Source: Treponemataceae bacterium | GTDB lineage: Bacteria; Spirochaetota; Spirochaetia; Treponematales; Rectinemataceae | Assembly (NCBI GenBank): GCA_963667725.2 | Contig: CAXXHO010000005.1 | Coordinates: 608,001-672,000, forward strand | DNA length: 64,000 bases | Reading direction: 5' to 3' | Part shown: positions 14,094 through 38,345 of the stretch, in pieces | Layout: every line of letters starts with the position of its first letter | How positions within the stretch are numbered: the stretch's first letter is position 1 | Program-made: the position numbers and the translations under genes | Notes under the pieces: generated by a model | Database searches by the model: none | Told to the model about the DNA's origin: nothing | The model's input: the letters and a program-made list of their open reading frames with translations, nothing else

Positions 14094-14390
14094 ATGCCCA
14101 GAAATCCTGAACTGATGCGTCACAATATCGCGGAGATGGCCCGCGCCCTCGAAGGCGCCGACGCGGCCCTCATCGAAGAATTCCTCTATTCGCTCCTCAC
14201 CCCGGCCGAAGCCGACGAAATGGCCAAGCGTTGGGCCCTCGTCAAGGAACTGTCGACCGGTATGCCCCAGCGCAAGATAGCCGAAGAGCTTGGCCTTTCC
14301 CTCTGCAAGATCACACGCGGCTCGCGCGAACTCAAGAAACAGGGCTCCGCCTTCAAGGCGCTGCTCGAGCGGCTGGATACCAAGAAATAG
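14094..14390 (+). CDS. TrpR/YerC-like repressor
   Basis: LLTPAE..EMAKRW, QRKIAEELGLSLCKITRGSRELK. Confidence 0.85.
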   Translation: MPRNPELMRHNIAEMARALEGADAALIEEFLYSLLTPAEADEMAKRWALVKELSTGMPQRKIAEELGLSLCKITRGSRELKKQGSAFKALLERLDTKK

Positions 14391-17222: not shown

Positions 17223-18518
17223 TTAGACCGACGCGAGCCCAAGCTGCAGGTCATCGATGATGTCCCCGACATTCTCGATGCCGATGGACAGGCGCACCAG
17301 GTCGGGCGTCACGCCCGAGTCGATTTGCTGCTCGTCGGTGAGCTGCGAGTGGGTCGTGCTTCCCGGGTGGATCGCAAGGCTCTTGGCGTCGCCGACGTTC
17401 GCCAGGTGCGAAAAGAGCTTGAGCGATTCGATGAACTTCTGGCCCGCCGGCCTTCCTCCCTTTACGCCAAACACGACCATGCCGCCCGCTCCCTTCGGCA
17501 GGAGTTTTTGGGCGAGCGCGTAGGAGGCGTCGCCCTCGAGGCCGGGATAGCGCACCCAGGCGACCTTGGGGTGGTTCTTGAGGAATTTCGCGACGGCGAG
17601 GGCGTTCTCGACGTGCCTCGGCATGCGGACATGGAGGGTTTCGATGCCCTGGAGGAAGATCCAGGCGTTGTCCGGCGAAAGGCAGGCGCCGAGGTTGCGC
17701 AGGGGCACCGTCCTGAAGCGCAGCGCGAAGGCGATCTTCCTGAGTTCCGGAGGAAGGTCGATGGCCCAGCGGAGACCGTGGTAGTTCTTGTCGGGGCTGT
17801 TGAAGAGGGTGAACTTGGGGTCGGACCAGTCGAAGGTACCAGCGTCCGTCGCTATGCCGCCTATCGCCGTGCCGTGTCCGCCCAGCCATTTGGTGAGGGA
17901 GTTGATGACGATGTCGGCGCCGTGTTCGATGGTCTTCAATAGATAGGGCGTGGTGAAGGTGGCGTCCACGACCAGGGGCAGATGATGCTTTTTCGCGATC
18001 GCCGATATGGCGTCGATGTCCGCGAGGTCGAGCACGGGATTGCCTATCGTCTCGATATAGAGAAGCCGGGTTTTTCCGTTGATAGCCGCCTCGAAGGAGG
18101 CGGGTTCGAGGACATTCGCGAACCTTGTGACGATCCCCAGGTCGGGGAGGATGGCGTCGAACATGGTGTAGGTGCCGCCGTAGAGATTGGTGGCAGACAC
18201 TATTTCGTCGCCCGCTTTCGCGATGGTAACGACCGTGTTGAAGATAGCCGCGGTGCCCGAGGCGACCGCCACCGAAGCGGCGCCGCCCTCAAGCTGACTC
18301 ACCCTCGCCTCGAGGACATCGTTGGTAGGATTGCCCATTCGTGAATAGATGTTTCCCGACTCCTTGAGTCCAAAGAGGTTGGCCGCGTGTTCGGCGCTCT
18401 TGAAGACGAAGGAAGAAGTCCGGTAGACGGGAACGCCACGAGAGAGGGTTGTCGGGTCGGGGCTATGTCCGGCTTGGACGGCTATCGTTTCGAAAGAAGG
18501 TTTTCTGTTTTCGGCCAT
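17223..18518 (-). CDS. metY: O-acetylhomoserine aminocarboxypropyltransferase (sulfhydrylase)
   Basis: IYSRMGNPT, SGTAA, ETIGNP, SLTKW (PLP lysine) and LANVGDAKSL. The true start is likely MAENRK at 18518. Confidence 0.9.
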   Translation of the reverse strand: MAENRKPSFETIAVQAGHSPDPTTLSRGVPVYRTSSFVFKSAEHAANLFGLKESGNIYSRMGNPTNDVLEARVSQLEGGAASVAVASGTAAIFNTVVTIAKAGDEIVSATNLYGGTYTMFDAILPDLGIVTRFANVLEPASFEAAINGKTRLLYIETIGNPVLDLADIDAISAIAKKHHLPLVVDATFTTPYLLKTIEHGADIVINSLTKWLGGHGTAIGGIATDAGTFDWSDPKFTLFNSPDKNYHGLRWAIDLPPELRKIAFALRFRTVPLRNLGACLSPDNAWIFLQGIETLHVRMPRHVENALAVAKFLKNHPKVAWVRYPGLEGDASYALAQKLLPKGAGGMVVFGVKGGRPAGQKFIESLKLFSHLANVGDAKSLAIHPGSTTHSQLTDEQQIDSGVTPDLVRLSIGIENVGDIIDDLQLGLASV

Positions 18519-18685
18519 GGAAGTTTCCTTGCGCGCCGCGAGGGCGCGGGAGAGATCGCGGCGGCCCTTTGGGCCGCCGCCTGGAATATGCCCCGTCCGC
18601 TTCCGGCGTCGCGACGCGCGCCATGAGCCGGTCGGGGCCCTGTCATGCTGCATATCATGCCCAGCCTGCCGTCTCTCTCGCTCAA
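18482..18685 (-). CDS. putative leader peptide upstream of metY, paralog of the metA leader
   Basis: The TTG start overlaps the metA stop and follows GGAGG. It reads [34 protein letters not shown]..., with 25 of 34 residues identical to 19677..19781. Confidence 0.6.
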
Positions 18686-19620
18686 TGCCTTCCTCCTCGA
18701 GGGAGATTTATCGCCGCGAGATCGTAGGGGGTTTCCTGGTACACGCAGTAGTTGAGCCAGTTGGCGTAGAGAAGGTGGGCGTGGGAGCGCCAGGTAACGA
18801 GAGGCTCGCGCTTCGGGTCGCCGTCAGGGAAATAGTTGACGGGCACCTTTATGGACAGTCCCTTCGCCACGTCGCGGTCATATTCGGCCTTGAGGGTCAG
18901 CCTGTCGTACTCGGGGTGGCCAGTGACGAAGACGCGGCGCCCGTCGCGCGAGGCCGCGAGGTAGACGCCCGCTTCCTCGGAAGTGGCGAGGAGCTTGAGG
19001 TCGGGAACGACAGCGATTTCATCGGCGTCGACCTCGGTGTACCGGGAGTGCGGGGCGTAGAATTCCTCGTCGAAGCCTCTGAGAAGGGGCTCCCTGGCAT
19101 CGAGGGTCCTGTGCCGATAGAGACCGAACATTTTTTCAGGAAGGGGCCGCTTGTCGATGCCGTAGTGGTGGTGCAGCCCCGCCTGGGCTCCCCAGCAGAT
19201 GTGGAGGGTGGACCAGACGTTGGTCGTGGACCAGTCCATGAGGCGGACGAGTTCGGGCCAGTAGTCCACTTCCTCGAAGGGAATGGTCTCGACCGGGGCG
19301 CCGGTGATCACGAGGCCGTCGAAACGTTCCTCAAGGATTTCGTCCAGGGGTTCGTAGAAGGCGTCCAGGTGCTCGATGGGGGTATTGGCCGACTCGTGAG
19401 TCGCCATGCGGATGAAGCGTATGTCAGTCTGGAGCGGCGAATTGCCCAAAAGGCGCAGTATTTGGGTTTCGGTGACTATCTTGGTGGGCATGAGATTGAG
19501 GACGGCGATCCTGAGCTCGCGGATATCCTGGTGGAAGGCGCGCTCCTTCGTCATCACGAAAATGTTTTCTTCTTCGAGTTGTCGCGCGGCGGGAAGATCG
19601 TCTGGAATTCTTACGGGCAT
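18682..19620 (-). CDS. metA: homoserine O-acyltransferase, MetA family, acetyl-specific type
   Basis: [14 protein letters not shown] (Glu at the specificity position indicates an acetyltransferase), ICWGAQA and GHPEY. The start is MPVRIP at 19620 after GGAGG. Confidence 0.93.
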
Positions 19621-19676
19621 AGGGCCTCCGGTCGCGCCTCCGTGGCGCGAAACGCCGCGGCCTCCCTTGGGGCCGC

Positions 19677-19781
19677 CTAGAAACCGCCCCGTCCGTACCT
19701 TGCGTCGCGACGCGCGCAAGAAGCAGGCCGGGGCTTTTTCATTTCACATATCATACCCACGCGACCGTCTCTTTCGCTCAT
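19677..19781 (-). CDS. putative 34-aa leader peptide upstream of metA
   Basis: [39 protein letters not shown] lies 10 nt upstream, and the ORF sits downstream of a TTGACA-17-CATAGT promoter. Confidence 0.65.
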
Positions 19782-19857
19782 GGACGCTATTCCTCCAATG
19801 GAATGGCCAAGGGGCCGCGATGATCCGCGCTATCCCCAGCCGCTTCAAGATTGTGTT

Positions 19858-19886
19858 ACTATGCATAACCACAAATGAACTGTCAA
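19858..19886 (-). promoter_or_regulatory. sigma70-type promoter for leader-metA-leader-metY
   Basis: Minus-strand TTGACA-gttcatttgtggttatg (17 bp)-CATAGT, overlapped by the imperfect dyad TTGTGTTACTATGCATAACCACAA. Confidence 0.6.
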
Positions 19887-19958: not shown

Positions 19959-19987
19959 TTGACCCCTCGACGTTCGCGTGCTAGGAT
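19959..19987 (+). promoter_or_regulatory. sigma70-type promoter of metF-metH
   Basis: TTGACC, a 17-bp spacer and TAGGAT, ending 12 nt before the ATG at 20000. Confidence 0.6.
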
Positions 19988-19999
19988 CGGCGAAATCTT

Positions 20000-21040
20000 A
20001 TGAGTGTAAATTCCTATGCCACCGCGAAAAAGCGGAACATTTCCTCCCGTTCGAGCATTCTCGATGCGCTCGCGTTAGGTCGATGCGTATCCATCGAGGT
20101 GGTCCCGCCGCCCCGCGGAGGCGATCTGGAATCGATCATGGCGGCCGTGGAGACCATCGCGCCGCACGATCCCTCCTTCATTTCGGTGACAGACCACCCG
20201 GGCGGGAAGGCCTGGGCCGATTCGACGGATGGGCCGCGGCGGGTAGCCTTGCGGACGAAGCCGGGCACCTTGGGAACTGCCGTGGCGCTGCGGGACGCCT
20301 TCGGTCTGACGACCGTGCCCCACATCGTCGGGGGGATGGCCGACAGGCTCGACGTCGAGGACCTTCTCATAGACCTCCACTACGCCAACTTCCGCGATCT
20401 TTTCGTCGTGATGGGCGACGATCGCTTCACTCCGGCAGGCCAGGCTTCCATACGGAATTCCCCCGCGGGCGGAGGCTCAGGCGAAGAGGGCTACGCCCAC
20501 GCCTCGGACCTCGTGGCGCACATTTCCAGGCTGAACTCGGGCGAATACACGCCGCCGGCAGAGGGCAAGCCCACTGCTTTCACCATGGGCGTCGCCGCCT
20601 ATCCCCAGAAACATTTCGCCGCCCCGAACCTCGAGGCCGATATCGAGCACCTGGCGGAAAAGATAACCGCGGGCGCTAGTTTCGCCATCACGCAGATGGT
20701 CTTCGAGGCAAAGCCTTACATCGAGCTCGTGCGGCGCCTCCGCGAAAGGGGCATCGACGCGCCCGTCCTGCCCGGCATAAAGCCGCTTTTCAAGGCTTCG
20801 AGCCTGGACATGATCCCGCGCACCTTCTTCGTCGACCTCCCGCGGGGATTGGTGAGCGCACTCAGGGAGGCCAGAAGTCCCGAGGAGGAAAAGGCCGCGG
20901 GCATAGCCTGGACGGTAAGACTCTGCCGGGAACTTCTCGACGCCGGGGCTCCCGGCCTGCACTTTTTCACGATGGGGCGCGGCGCCGGAACGCGGTGGAT
21001 ACTCGACGCCCTTTTCGGGCCGAAAGGCGGCGCGTCGTGA
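20000..21040 (+). CDS. metF: methylenetetrahydrofolate reductase
   Basis: SIEVVPP, FISVT, PH, GD, GVAAYP, AITQMVF and GLHFFT. Confidence 0.88.
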   Translation: MSVNSYATAKKRNISSRSSILDALALGRCVSIEVVPPPRGGDLESIMAAVETIAPHDPSFISVTDHPGGKAWADSTDGPRRVALRTKPGTLGTAVALRDAFGLTTVPHIVGGMADRLDVEDLLIDLHYANFRDLFVVMGDDRFTPAGQASIRNSPAGGGSGEEGYAHASDLVAHISRLNSGEYTPPAEGKPTAFTMGVAAYPQKHFAAPNLEADIEHLAEKITAGASFAITQMVFEAKPYIELVRRLRERGIDAPVLPGIKPLFKASSLDMIPRTFFVDLPRGLVSALREARSPEEEKAAGIAWTVRLCRELLDAGAPGLHFFTMGRGAGTRWILDALFGPKGGAS

Positions 21041-26628: not shown

Positions 26629-26659
26629 TTGACAGCGTAATACCACATTGTGGTATATT
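26629..26659 (+). promoter_or_regulatory. cysK promoter with the operator dyad TACCAC-N3-GTGGTA
   Basis: TTGACA (26629), ATACCAC-ATT-GTGGTAT (26640-26656) and extended -10 TGgTATATT. Confidence 0.6.
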
Positions 26660-26892: not shown

Positions 26893-27855
26893 ATGTCATA
26901 CGCGAAAAGCATAACCGACCTCATAGGAAACACGCCCCTCGTCCAAATAAAGGCACCCGACGCAGCGCCAAGGGCAAAGCCCTTGGCGATCGTCCTCGCC
27001 AAGCTCGAGTCCTTCAATCCCTTCTCGAGCATCAAAGACCGCATAGGCCTGGCCATGATCGAGGACGCCGAACACCGCGGCGCGCTCAAGAAGGGAAACA
27101 TCATCGTCGAACCCACCTCGGGCAACACCGGCGTGGCCCTCGCCGCCGTGGCGGCGGCCAAGGGCTACCGCATCATCCTCACGATGCCCGACACCATGAG
27201 CGTCGAGCGGCGCAAGCTTCTCGCGGCCTACGGGGCCGAGCTCGTCCTCACCGAGGGAGCCAAGGGCATGAAGGGCGCCATAGCGAAGGCGAAGGAAATC
27301 GCCGAATCCACCCCGGGCAGCTTCATACCCAGCCAATTCGACAACCCGGCCAACCCGAAGATACACCGCGAAACGACGGCCGAGGAGATCTGGCGCGACA
27401 CCGAGGGGAAGGTGGACATCGTGGTGGCTGGCGTGGGCACGGGCGGGACGATCACCGGCGTCGCCTCGGCGCTCAAGCCGCGAAAACCGGGGTTCGAGGC
27501 CATCGCCGTGGAGCCGGCCGCCTCACCCGTCCTCTCGGGCGGCCAACCCGGCCCCCACAAAATTCAGGGCATAGGCGCAGGCTTTATCCCCGGAGTCTAC
27601 GACCCGAAGCTCATCGACGAAATCATACAGGTGAAACACGAGGACGCCGGCTTGGTCGCGCGCGACCTGGCTAGGCATGAGGGAATCTTCGCGGGAATTT
27701 CGTCCGGAGCGGCGCTCTGGGCAGCCCTGCGGGTAGCGGCGCGCCCGGAAAACGCGGGCAAGGTCATCGTCGTCATCTTCCCCGATACGGGCGAGCGCTA
27801 CCTCTCCACCTGGCTCTTCGAGGAACCGGCGCCCGCAGACGTGAACGTAAAATAA
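26893..27855 (+). CDS. cysK: cysteine synthase A
   Basis: IGNTPLV, SIKDR (PLP lysine), [22 protein letters not shown] and DTGERYLST. Confidence 0.95.
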
Positions 27856-36862: not shown

Positions 36863-37426
36863 CTAGATGGACCAAACATCGCTGGCTGACCGCACGATTC
36901 CATCCGTGGCAGCCGCGCTTTCCGCCAACGCGTTAATCCGCGAGAAGACCTCGCAGGTATAGCAGTACCGCTCGCCGATCCCGGAAGCTTTCGCGGAGGC
37001 GCAGAGACCGCCCGTGAAAAACCAGCAGAAGTGGCCTTCGCCCGTCACGTAGGCGATACATTCCTTGCGCGACTCATCGGAACAGGACTTCATCGACCAG
37101 CAGGGGTTTTCGTGGGCAAAAGACTTTTCGTTCAGTTTGAAAAGGAGGAAGTAGAGCATTCTCTCGACGTTCGAAGGAACCTTGCGCCAGCCCTGCTCAT
37201 AGCTTTCCACCGCCTTGGGCGATATGCCGAGAAGGCGCGCCAGCTCGCGCTGACTTTTTCCGAGAAGCGCCCTTGCCCTGGTGAATCCCGCCTTGTCCAT
37301 GGGACGGAGCTCGGGAAGCGCGCCAGCAGTCGGGATAGCGCCCCTTTCGGGACTCGCTTCAGGGTTTTTCTCAGAGCCAGTTTTAAAACCTATGTTAATA
37401 CCCACGTTGTCGCCAGCCTTTCCCAT
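36863..37426 (-). CDS. XRE-type HTH regulator with a Cys-rich 'two-CW' C-terminal domain
   Basis: HTH SQRELARLLGISPKAVESYEQGWR, then CW..K.C......C.AY......CW...G..C...........C..C. The start is likely ATG 37426. Confidence 0.8.
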   Translation of the reverse strand: MGKAGDNVGINIGFKTGSEKNPEASPERGAIPTAGALPELRPMDKAGFTRARALLGKSQRELARLLGISPKAVESYEQGWRKVPSNVERMLYFLLFKLNEKSFAHENPCWSMKSCSDESRKECIAYVTGEGHFCWFFTGGLCASAKASGIGERYCYTCEVFSRINALAESAAATDGIVRSASDVWSI

Positions 37427-37541: not shown

Positions 37542-38345
37542 TCAGAAAGCCGGGACCACCCCGCCGCCATAGGTCTTGAGAATGAAATCCTTCACTTTCT
37601 GCGAGGTGAGCGCCTTCGCAAGCGCCACGATGCGCGGATCCTTCGTCTCGCCCTTCCTCACCACGAGAATGTTGGCGTAAGGGGAGTCCCCGCCCTCGAG
37701 GAGAAGCGAATCCTTCACCGGGTTGAAGCCAGCCTGCAGCGCGTAGTTACCGTTGATGATGGCTCCCGCCACGTCCAGGAGCGTGCGCGGAAGCTGCGGC
37801 GCCTCGATCTCCTTAAACTGGAACTTCTTGGGATTCTCGGCGATGTCCCTCGTCGTCGCCTCAAGACCGGCATTGGCCCTGAGCTTGATCAGTCCCTTGG
37901 ACTGGAGGAATATCAGCGCCCGCCCCTCGTTGGTCGGATCATTGGGAATCGCTATCATCGCGCCAGCGGGAAAGTCGGAAACCTTCTTGTATTTCTTGGA
38001 ATAAAGCCCGAGCGGCTCGACATGGACGGCCACGGCGCTTTCAAGGTCGAGTTTGCGCGCCGACGCGAAGGCCTCGAGGTAGGGAAGGTGCTGGAAAAAG
38101 TTGGCGTCCAGCTGCTTCTCCGCCAGGGCGATGTTCGGCGTGACATAGTCGGAGAATTCGACGATATCGAGCTTGATGCCCTGGACGGCGAGATCGGCCT
38201 TGATCACGTTGAGAATCTCGGCATGGGGAACGGCGGTCGCTCCGACCTTGAGACTGGTCTGGGCGGCGCCTTGGGCCGCGCCCTGCGCGATCGCCGTGAG
38301 GGCGATGACGCCGGCAATGAGTATCCTGAAAAATCCGCGGTTCAT
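37542..38345 (-). CDS. metQ: MetQ/NlpA-family methionine ABC transporter substrate-binding protein
   Basis: VGAT.VPHAEIL, FSDYV.PN, DANFFQH.PYL, PNDPTNEGRAL and SPYANI. Confidence 0.93.
   Translation of the reverse strand: MNRGFFRILIAGVIALTAIAQGAAQGAAQTSLKVGATAVPHAEILNVIKADLAVQGIKLDIVEFSDYVTPNIALAEKQLDANFFQHLPYLEAFASARKLDLESAVAVHVEPLGLYSKKYKKVSDFPAGAMIAIPNDPTNEGRALIFLQSKGLIKLRANAGLEATTRDIAENPKKFQFKEIEAPQLPRTLLDVAGAIINGNYALQAGFNPVKDSLLLEGGDSPYANILVVRKGETKDPRIVALAKALTSQKVKDFILKTYGGGVVPAF

What the first reader, a model, noticed from the sequence alone, without database searches (positions are those of the whole stretch)
18482..19781. Two paralogous leader peptides, conserved at codon level, precede metA and metY: a candidate undescribed Met/Cys/SAM-sensing attenuation system
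Seen in sequence: the regions upstream of metA (19677-19781) and metY (18685 downward) are homologous without indels. They encode [34 protein letters not shown] and [34 protein letters not shown](Q...). 25 of 34 residues are identical, and 8 of those use different synonymous codons (GAA/GAG, GGT/GGC twice, CGC/AGG, TGT/TGC, CGG/CGA, CCT/CCG, GCA/GCC). That pattern suggests selection on the peptide rather than only on DNA or RNA. Both copies have a GGAGG RBS and keep an M-I(ATA)-C-x-M core. Established: amino-acid attenuators use leader ORFs with cognate codons, and metabolite-sensing arrest peptides exist (TnaC; SAM-induced arrest in plant CGS1). Bacterial met genes are usually controlled by SAM riboswitches, T-boxes or MetJ/MetR, and I recognise none of these here. 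Inference: ribosome stalling on the leader controls methionine synthesis genes.
Basis: partly seen in the sequence, partly recalled or inferred. Interest (0 to 1): 0.88.

Follow-up and report, generated by a model that had tools for sequence, protein, structure and literature searches.

The report
Methionine-codon leader switch in spirochaetes
A tiny upstream gene rich in methionine codons, ending at the foot of a conserved RNA hairpin, probably lets the ribosome itself switch on methionine-synthesis genes in a group of spirochaetes when methionine runs short, a textbook kind of control for which I found no published methionine example.

Summary
The two leaders are real. They belong to a family of 45 leaders, from 28 related genomes and 10 metagenome loci, that precede metY (26), metA (16) or an amino-acid ABC binding protein (2); one lies at a contig end. 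Translation is well supported: a start codon sits 13 codons before a fixed Met in 37 of 42 distinct leaders, that frame stays open in 41 of 42, and extra Met codons appear only in that frame. Peptide-level selection is confined to codons 2-9 (pN/pS 0.29). Codons 10-32 show none (about 0.9); codons 17-32 encode a covarying 49-nt RNA hairpin, and the Cys swaps with Trp. With Met14 in the A site the hairpin starts at +12, the mRNA entry channel. There is no U-tailed terminator. Folding models make the downstream ribosome-binding site most open when a ribosome stalls before the hairpin. Best reading: a Met-tRNA-sensing translational attenuator, not an arrest peptide or riboswitch. No expression or translation data exist, so the mechanism is inferred. 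This scan's earlier unchecked notes report Met-codon leaders before metY in other genomes, mostly with terminators; none resembles this sequence.

The parts
19858..19886 (-). sigma-70-type promoter of leader A-metA-leader B-metY
   Evidence: TTGACA-17-CATAGT, 10 of 12 matches; similar boxes in relatives; consensus match only
19792..19796 (-). Shine-Dalgarno of leader A
   Evidence: GGAGG; SD-like 4-mer before 35 of 37 codon-1 starts
19677..19781 (-). leader ORF A, 34 aa; Met10 at 19752-19754, Met14 at 19740-19742
19747..19749 (-). invariant out-of-frame AUG, 7 nt before Met14 (unexplained)
   Evidence: 42 of 42 distinct leaders, partly by construction of the searches
19686..19734 (-). 49-nt hairpin H1 of leader A, GCCCCG...CGGGGC
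   Evidence: -28.4 kcal/mol; 14 of 20 pairs with two-sided changes
19657..19676 (-). GC-rich hairpin H2 directly after the stop codon, no U tract
   Evidence: not called as terminator
19623..19650 (-). hairpin H3 and metA ribosome-binding site GGAGGCC
   Evidence: GGAG+GCC in 20 of 34 leader-controlled sites vs 31 of 1035 genome-wide
18682..19620 (-). metA, homoserine O-acetyltransferase
   Evidence: NF047918 over cut-off
18692..18696 (-). Shine-Dalgarno of leader B, inside the metA 3' end
18482..18685 (-). leader ORF B, TTG start overlapping the metA stop, 67 aa, reads across the metY start out of frame; Met10 at 18656-18658, Met14 at 18644-18646
18590..18638 (-). 49-nt hairpin H1 of leader B
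   Evidence: -31.5 kcal/mol
18558..18580 (-). hairpin H2 of leader B, no U tract
   Evidence: -22.8 kcal/mol
18526..18548 (-). hairpin H3 and metY ribosome-binding site
17223..18518 (-). metY, O-acetylhomoserine sulfhydrylase
   Evidence: TIGR01326 over cut-off

Best explanation
A ribosome-mediated translational attenuator that senses charged elongator Met-tRNA. A ribosome starts at the leader and meets Met codons, typically at positions 10 and 14. When methionine is short it waits with Met14 (or an earlier Met) in the A site. Hairpin H1 then sits unopened at the mRNA entry channel, H1 and H2 keep their G-rich strands paired, the 5' leader is masked, and the metA or metY ribosome-binding site is at its most open: ON. 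When methionine is plentiful, ribosomes run through, melt H1 and the 5' arm of H2, and the freed G-rich strands pair with the C-rich SD/start region (or, in leader B, ribosomes cross the metY start out of frame): OFF, perhaps reinforced by Rho polarity. Shown by sequence comparison: conserved start, frame, Met codons, H1 structure, spacing, absence of a U tract. Inferred: actual translation, stalling, the direction of the switch and the translational output.
For: Start codon (ATG 30, TTG 4, GTG 3) exactly 13 codons before the fixed Met in 37 of 42 distinct leaders; stop in codons 2-29 in 1 of 42 in this frame vs 36 and 25 in the others. Excluding positions 10 and 14, 31 of 360 in-frame codons are ATG vs 3 and 0 in other frames; local coding background 2.5%. 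41 of 42 have two or more Met in codons 2-16 (in the 5 leaders with a shifted start one of these may be the initiator), and 5 of the 7 lacking Met10 have an internal Met at 5-7. Codons 2-9 pN/pS 0.29 vs 1.3 and 1.6 in other frames. G327, not used to build the model, fits: start 13 codons up, Met7, Met8, Met14. H1 covariation: 76 two-sided cells vs 42.5 shuffled, slid controls 28-64. H1 starts at +12 with Met14 in the A site; the channel holds 11 nt (PMC7282821, passages; PMC8861025, passages). Opening energy of the downstream RBS rises by a median 2.4 kcal/mol when strand 1 is covered (over 0.5 in 30 of 38) and 2.3 when cover reaches the stop region (33 of 38); RBS-shuffled controls give 1.05 and 1.54. 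GGAG+GCC enrichment. Leader stops lie 47-96 nt before the gene or beyond its start, never coupled to it (34 and 4 of 38). Downstream genes are metY, metA or a family-3 ABC binding protein in 44 of 45.
Against: No ribosome profiling, toeprint or reporter data. The folding effect is modest and uneven: freed strand 2 pairs with the RBS at over 0.5 probability in only 8-11 of 38, 8 of 38 show under 0.5 kcal/mol change for strand-1 cover, and the shuffled controls also rise. The sign depends on the assumed footprint: at +15 a ribosome stalled on Met14 would itself open strand 1. Equilibrium folding ignores kinetics, and the sequences are kin. The model does not explain the invariant out-of-frame AUG, the conserved N-terminal peptide, or the near-fixed 49-nt length. 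Leader initiation itself needs fMet-tRNA; the naked leader is predicted more closed than the stalled one in 23 of 38, so severe starvation could silence the switch unless initiator tRNA stays charged (recalled from Elf 2003 and Dittmar 2005; not readable here). G034 has one internal Met. A degenerate leader before metY in L043 scores only E 1.7 and has Cys rather than Met in the stop-aligned frame.
Confidence: 0.58

Rival explanations
1. Same Met-codon sensor, but the output is transcriptional: H2 acts as a U-less terminator or pause site, or full leader translation exposes a Rho loading site.
For: Rho is present (TIGR00767, 722 bits). H2 is stable (-8 to -28 kcal/mol) and often followed by pyrimidines. 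Classical attenuators work on transcription.
Against: At most 4 U in the 8 nt after H2 in 41 of 42 leaders. H2 stays formed in 31-34 of 38 in every footprint state and strand 2 invades the spacer or H2 in only 5-6 of 38, so no general antiterminator. The region after the stop is short and structured.
Confidence: 0.15
2. Nascent-peptide arrest induced by excess Met, Cys or SAM (TnaC or CGS1 type): the ribosome arrests just inside H1, covers strand 1 and lets strand 2 close the RBS.
For: Codons 2-9 are under peptide-level selection; the start-to-Met14 distance is fixed in 37 of 42; covering strand 1 does close the RBS in the model.
Against: No amino-acid selection in codons 10-32; Cys/Trp switching; Arg18 replaced with stem-compensating changes; unrelated N-termini and leaders that appear to start at codon 9 or 10; in-frame Met turnover is not explained.
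Confidence: 0.13
3. A new riboswitch (SAM or similar) or RNA-binding-protein site; the ORF is incidental.
For: Nucleotide-level invariants (out-of-frame AUG, apical triloop, CCC at codon 17), near-fixed hairpin length and covariation.
Against: ATG/GTG/TTG interchange at one position behind an SD, single-frame openness, in-frame Met turnover and N-terminal synonymous bias need translation. No riboswitch family matches.
Confidence: 0.1
4. Non-regulatory or relic duplicate of a 5' UTR.
For: The two copies alone show no significant synonymous bias (p 0.06).
Against: 45 leaders in two families, tied to met genes through gene rearrangements, with covariation.
Confidence: 0.04

Closest known systems
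Polycysteine short-ORF translational attenuators of mycobacteria (Ms5788A; 10.1101/834739, passages read)
   Same: End-product codons in a short ORF; stalling proposed to keep the downstream SD free; no intrinsic terminator.
   Different: Met not Cys; SD-led not leaderless; scattered codons; the sensor codons lie before a separate hairpin instead of pairing with the SD themselves.
Classical leader-peptide transcription attenuators (His, Trp, Thr, Leu leaders; listed in PMC3766115, passages read)
   Same: Short translated leader with cognate codons overlapping alternative RNA structures before biosynthesis genes.
   Different: No U-tailed terminator, no general antiterminator; the stalled ribosome is modelled as preserving the first hairpin, not breaking it; that paper's leader list has no Met entry.
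dnaX and HIV frameshift stem-loops (PMC7282821, PMC8861025, passages read)
   Same: Hairpin at +12 from the P-site codon, where such stems slow tRNA binding and translocation.
   Different: No slippery site. H1 has about 20 pairs, and an HIV stem extended by 6 pairs lost A-site docking, so only the entry-channel geometry carries over.
Rfam ybhL leader RF00520 (PMC1273637, passages read)
   Same: Shares GCAUG, 5 nt, GCCCCG ... ACGGGGC; weak cross-hits (E 3.5; E 0.07-0.3).
   Different: Precedes a membrane-protein gene in Rhizobiales; the 5 strong ybhL loci show no SD-led upstream ORF, no Met run, no H2, and hairpin length varies with frame changes.
Arrest peptides TnaC and plant CGS1 (recalled)
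   Same: Conserved N-terminal residues in part of the family.
   Different: No amino-acid constraint around the presumed stall site.

Membership tests
Leader-peptide attenuators (broad class) | Short ORF with SD and start codon upstream of a biosynthesis gene | tested here: met
   37 of 42 starts at codon 1; SD-like in 35 of 37
Leader-peptide attenuators (broad class) | Enrichment of end-product codons in frame | tested here: met
   31 of 360 vs 3 and 0, positions 10 and 14 excluded
Leader-peptide attenuators (broad class) | Translation and amino-acid-dependent stalling shown | not testable with these tools
   no ribosome data
Classical transcription attenuator (trpL/hisL type) | Intrinsic terminator with U tract | tested here: not met
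   at most 4 U of 8 in 41 of 42; no terminator call at H2
Classical transcription attenuator (trpL/hisL type) | Antiterminator that excludes the terminator on stalling | tested here: not met
   H2 intact in 31-34 of 38 in all states
Translational attenuator (mycobacterial polycysteine type) | Leader element pairs with the downstream SD/start and is released or prevented by stalling | tested here: inconclusive
   median +2.4 vs +1.05 kcal/mol control; direct strand-2 pairing in 8-11 of 38
Translational attenuator (mycobacterial polycysteine type) | Leaderless ORF with Cys tract | tested here: not met
   SD-led; Cys12 replaceable by Trp
Metabolite-sensing arrest peptide | Amino-acid conservation at the arrest site | tested here: not met
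   pN/pS 0.95 and 0.86 for codons 10-16 and 17-32
SAM riboswitches and T-box (Rfam) | Covariance-model match | tested here: not met
   0 hits at gathering score in the window; 6 chance-level hits at E up to 10, none a riboswitch
ybhL leader RF00520 | Score over 50 bits and ybhL gene context | tested here: not met
   19.1 bits; different genes and anatomy

The most novel reading that the evidence does not exclude
A hybrid sensor in which a conserved nascent N-terminal peptide, tandem in- and out-of-frame AUGs and a length-fixed hairpin parked at the mRNA entry channel act together to make one Met codon hypersensitive to elongator Met-tRNA, and in which the stalled ribosome turns genes on by protecting, not melting, the first hairpin. 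This would be a new attenuator architecture and would show how a cell senses methionine with a leader whose own initiation needs methionine.
Probability: 0.25. Interest if true: 0.85.

Novelty: new variant of a known kind. Interest (0 to 1): 0.63.

Why it matters
Methionine control in bacteria is described through riboswitches, T-boxes and transcription factors; I found no leader-peptide attenuator for methionine in the papers searched. Because every leader needs methionine to start, such a sensor must separate initiator from elongator tRNA charging. A compact 170-nt element with 45 natural variants makes that directly testable in a reporter or purified translation system, and it defines an RNA family missing from Rfam 15.

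Tried and rejected
Rfam: nothing at gathering score; ybhL hit followed up and rejected; the alignment files of the ybhL paper could not be read. Wider searches: model R2 found nothing in 150 other genomes of the class, nothing in families f2-f5 of the order (0 of 78), and no significant hit in 76 metA loci with mostly other phyla in their titles (L044-L119); stricter filters apply, so 'not found in those searched'. Weak model hits in G055, G083 and the second G003 hit lie in coding sequence and were dropped. The metagenome pattern gave 68 loci: 16 had the 37-nt gap, of which 13 are leaders and 3 chance; the 52 with other gaps did not look like met leaders by their first downstream ORF. Three of those 13 loci (L141, L186, L187) repeat other copies and were left out. 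From 45 leaders, 1 truncated and 2 duplicates were dropped for codon counts (42). For folding, 4 lacked a full leader or a called gene start, and 1 with a mis-called start and 2 near-duplicates were dropped (38). The second helix was mis-specified and is ignored. No common pairing partner for the out-of-frame AUG; its frame gives AUG-stop in 15 of 42. Sequencing runs: no RNA holder listed; only contigs could be laid, uninformative. The leader peptide matches no NCBIfam or Pfam family; it was not searched against the large protein set, being under the minimum length. A scan of 102 metA/metY upstream regions in other taxa found 1 weak Met-rich short ORF, so it neither confirms nor tests the earlier notes. 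Two papers were not held. My early label metQ for the third G049 target was wrong: it is a family-3 binding protein.

Full report
Observation. They align without gaps over 35 codons with 25 of 34 identical residues, 8 through synonymous codons. Leader B starts with TTG overlapping the metA stop, lacks the stop at codon 35 and runs 67 codons across the metY start out of frame. A sigma-70-type promoter lies at 19886-19858; metF- and metH-like genes are divergent. The closest named MetA matches are titled Treponemataceae, Spirochaetae and Spirochaetia. No Rfam family reaches its gathering score in the window. The genome has no SAM-I match, and its single T-box-like match precedes a gene whose N-terminus I read as ThrS (label from recall).

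A family, not a pair. BLAST and two covariance models found homologues in the window's family (20 of 69 genomes at E up to 0.05, one of them a coding false positive) and in one other family of the order (10 of 37), with none in four further families (0 of 78) or in 150 other genomes of the class. A metagenome pattern scan added 11 leaders. The working set is 45 leaders from 28 genomes and 10 metagenome loci. They precede metY (26), metA (16) or a family-3 amino-acid ABC binding protein (2); one is at a contig end. The leader stays with these genes when gene order changes.

It is translated, by comparative criteria. Among 42 distinct leaders, 37 have ATG, TTG or GTG exactly 13 codons before a fixed Met, 35 of those 37 with an SD-like motif; the frame has a stop in codons 2-29 in 1 of 42, against 36 and 25 in the other frames. 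Met14 and the out-of-frame AUG were part of my search models, so their 42 of 42 is partly circular. Leaving out positions 10 and 14, 31 of 360 in-frame codons are ATG, against 3 and 0 in the other frames and 2.5% in local genes. Met10 is present in 35 of 42; 5 of the 7 without it carry an internal Met at 5-7, one appears to start at codon 9, and one has Met14 alone. The held-out G327 leader fits the pattern.

But most of the peptide is not under amino-acid selection. Over 17 disjoint pairs chosen by nucleotide identity, pN/pS is 0.29 for codons 2-9 (1.29 and 1.63 in other frames), 0.95 for codons 10-16 and 0.86 for codons 17-32. The window pair alone gives 0.51, p 0.06. Codon 11 always ends in A while coding seven residues, and codon 12 is Cys (34) or Trp (8), switching 3-5 times on a tree built from the sequence downstream of codon 16. 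What is conserved there is an AUG in another frame. Codons 17-32 encode a hairpin of 49 nt (39 of 42, counting three that the script mis-measured and the alignment shows at 49; the others are 50, 48 and 44): 14 of 20 pairs show two-sided changes, including the outer stem, above shuffled and slid controls. Stop positions vary and four leaders read through.

Mechanism. The hairpin begins 5 nt after Met14, that is at +12 from the P-site codon when Met14 is in the A site. Two papers (passages read) place the channel end at 11 nt and show stems at this spot slow the ribosome; they also show that a longer stem loses A-site docking, which argues against docking for H1. A second GC-rich hairpin follows the stop but has no U tract (at most 4 U of 8 in 41 of 42) and stays formed in 31-34 of 38 leaders in every modelled state, so classical termination/antitermination is not supported. 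Constraint folding of 38 leaders gives the lowest RBS opening energy with a ribosome stalled before H1. It rises by a median 2.4 kcal/mol when strand 1 is covered (30 of 38 over 0.5, 2 lower) and 2.3 when cover reaches the stop region (33 of 38, 2 lower); RBS-shuffled controls rise 1.05 and 1.54, and the real value beats its control in 31 and 27 of 38. The bases after the SD are GCC in 20 of 34 leader-controlled genes and 31 of 1035 genome-wide sites, complementary to the freed G-rich strands. No leader stop is coupled to the gene start. These fit stall = ON, run-through = OFF. Against it: direct strand-2/RBS pairing exceeds 0.5 in only 8-11 of 38, the sign flips if the footprint reaches +15, the sequences are related, and equilibrium folding ignores kinetics. 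Rho is present, so a transcriptional or polar output remains open.

Comparison. It works most like the mycobacterial polycysteine translational attenuators and, in its sensor, like His/Trp/Thr/Leu leaders, but fails the defining terminator test of the latter and the leaderless Cys-tract test of the former. The Rfam ybhL leader shares the AUG-5nt-stem outline at chance-level scores; five strong ybhL loci lack the SD-led ORF, Met run and second hairpin and vary in frame, so I reject membership. Five searches of the held library found no published Met leader-peptide attenuator (listings only); subscription papers, including comparative surveys of attenuation that I recall, are not covered. This scan's earlier notes list eight Met- or Met/Cys-codon leaders before metY in other genomes, mostly with intrinsic terminators; none resembles this sequence and I did not verify them.

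Verdict. A real, lineage-restricted, undescribed cis-regulatory leader. Translation and Met-codon sensing, whatever the output, are likely (about 0.73); the specific hairpin-protection, RBS-occlusion mechanism is my best guess (0.58). The out-of-frame AUG, the conserved N-terminus and the near-fixed hairpin length remain unexplained. New variant of a known kind; interest 0.63.

Noticed in passing
window 26641-26655: Perfect palindrome TACCAC-N3-GTGGTA in the promoter of a cysK-like PALP gene (26896-27855). The same box (CCACA-N-TGTGG, up to 1 mismatch) lies upstream of 17 of 45 leaders in relatives, but not at this window's metA promoter: a candidate sulfur-amino-acid operator, a second layer of control.
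   Followed up: partly
window 36863-37300 (minus strand): Small XRE-type HTH protein with a Cys-rich C-terminal domain, with two TACCAC-N3-GTGGTA boxes upstream of its own gene; homologues sit next to metY in 7 fetched loci. Candidate repressor for that box.
   Followed up: partly
window 37542-38345 (minus strand): MetQ/NlpA-family lipoprotein gene directly upstream of that regulator.
   Followed up: no
L043 2297-2383 (minus strand): Degenerate leader before metY with a much shorter hairpin and Cys-Gly-Cys instead of Cys-x-Met in the stop-aligned frame; possibly a Cys-switched version.
   Followed up: partly
L257-L261, ybhL leader matches: The orphan Rfam ybhL motif carries a conserved AUG near its 5' end, 5 nt before its stem, opening Met-Leu-Glu in all five strong loci, with differing downstream frames; a near-leaderless upstream ORF is possible.
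   Followed up: partly
L255 (G000:C3:1421384-1421652, minus strand): T-box-like RNA, 64.8 bits, below the cut-off, before a ThrS-like gene in this genome.
   Followed up: no
window 19959-20000: The divergent metF promoter match ends 13 nt before the ATG with no SD: nearly leaderless metF-metH transcript.
   Followed up: no
window 14094-14390: Small TrpR-like protein (TIGR01321, below cut-off) near the met cluster.
   Followed up: no
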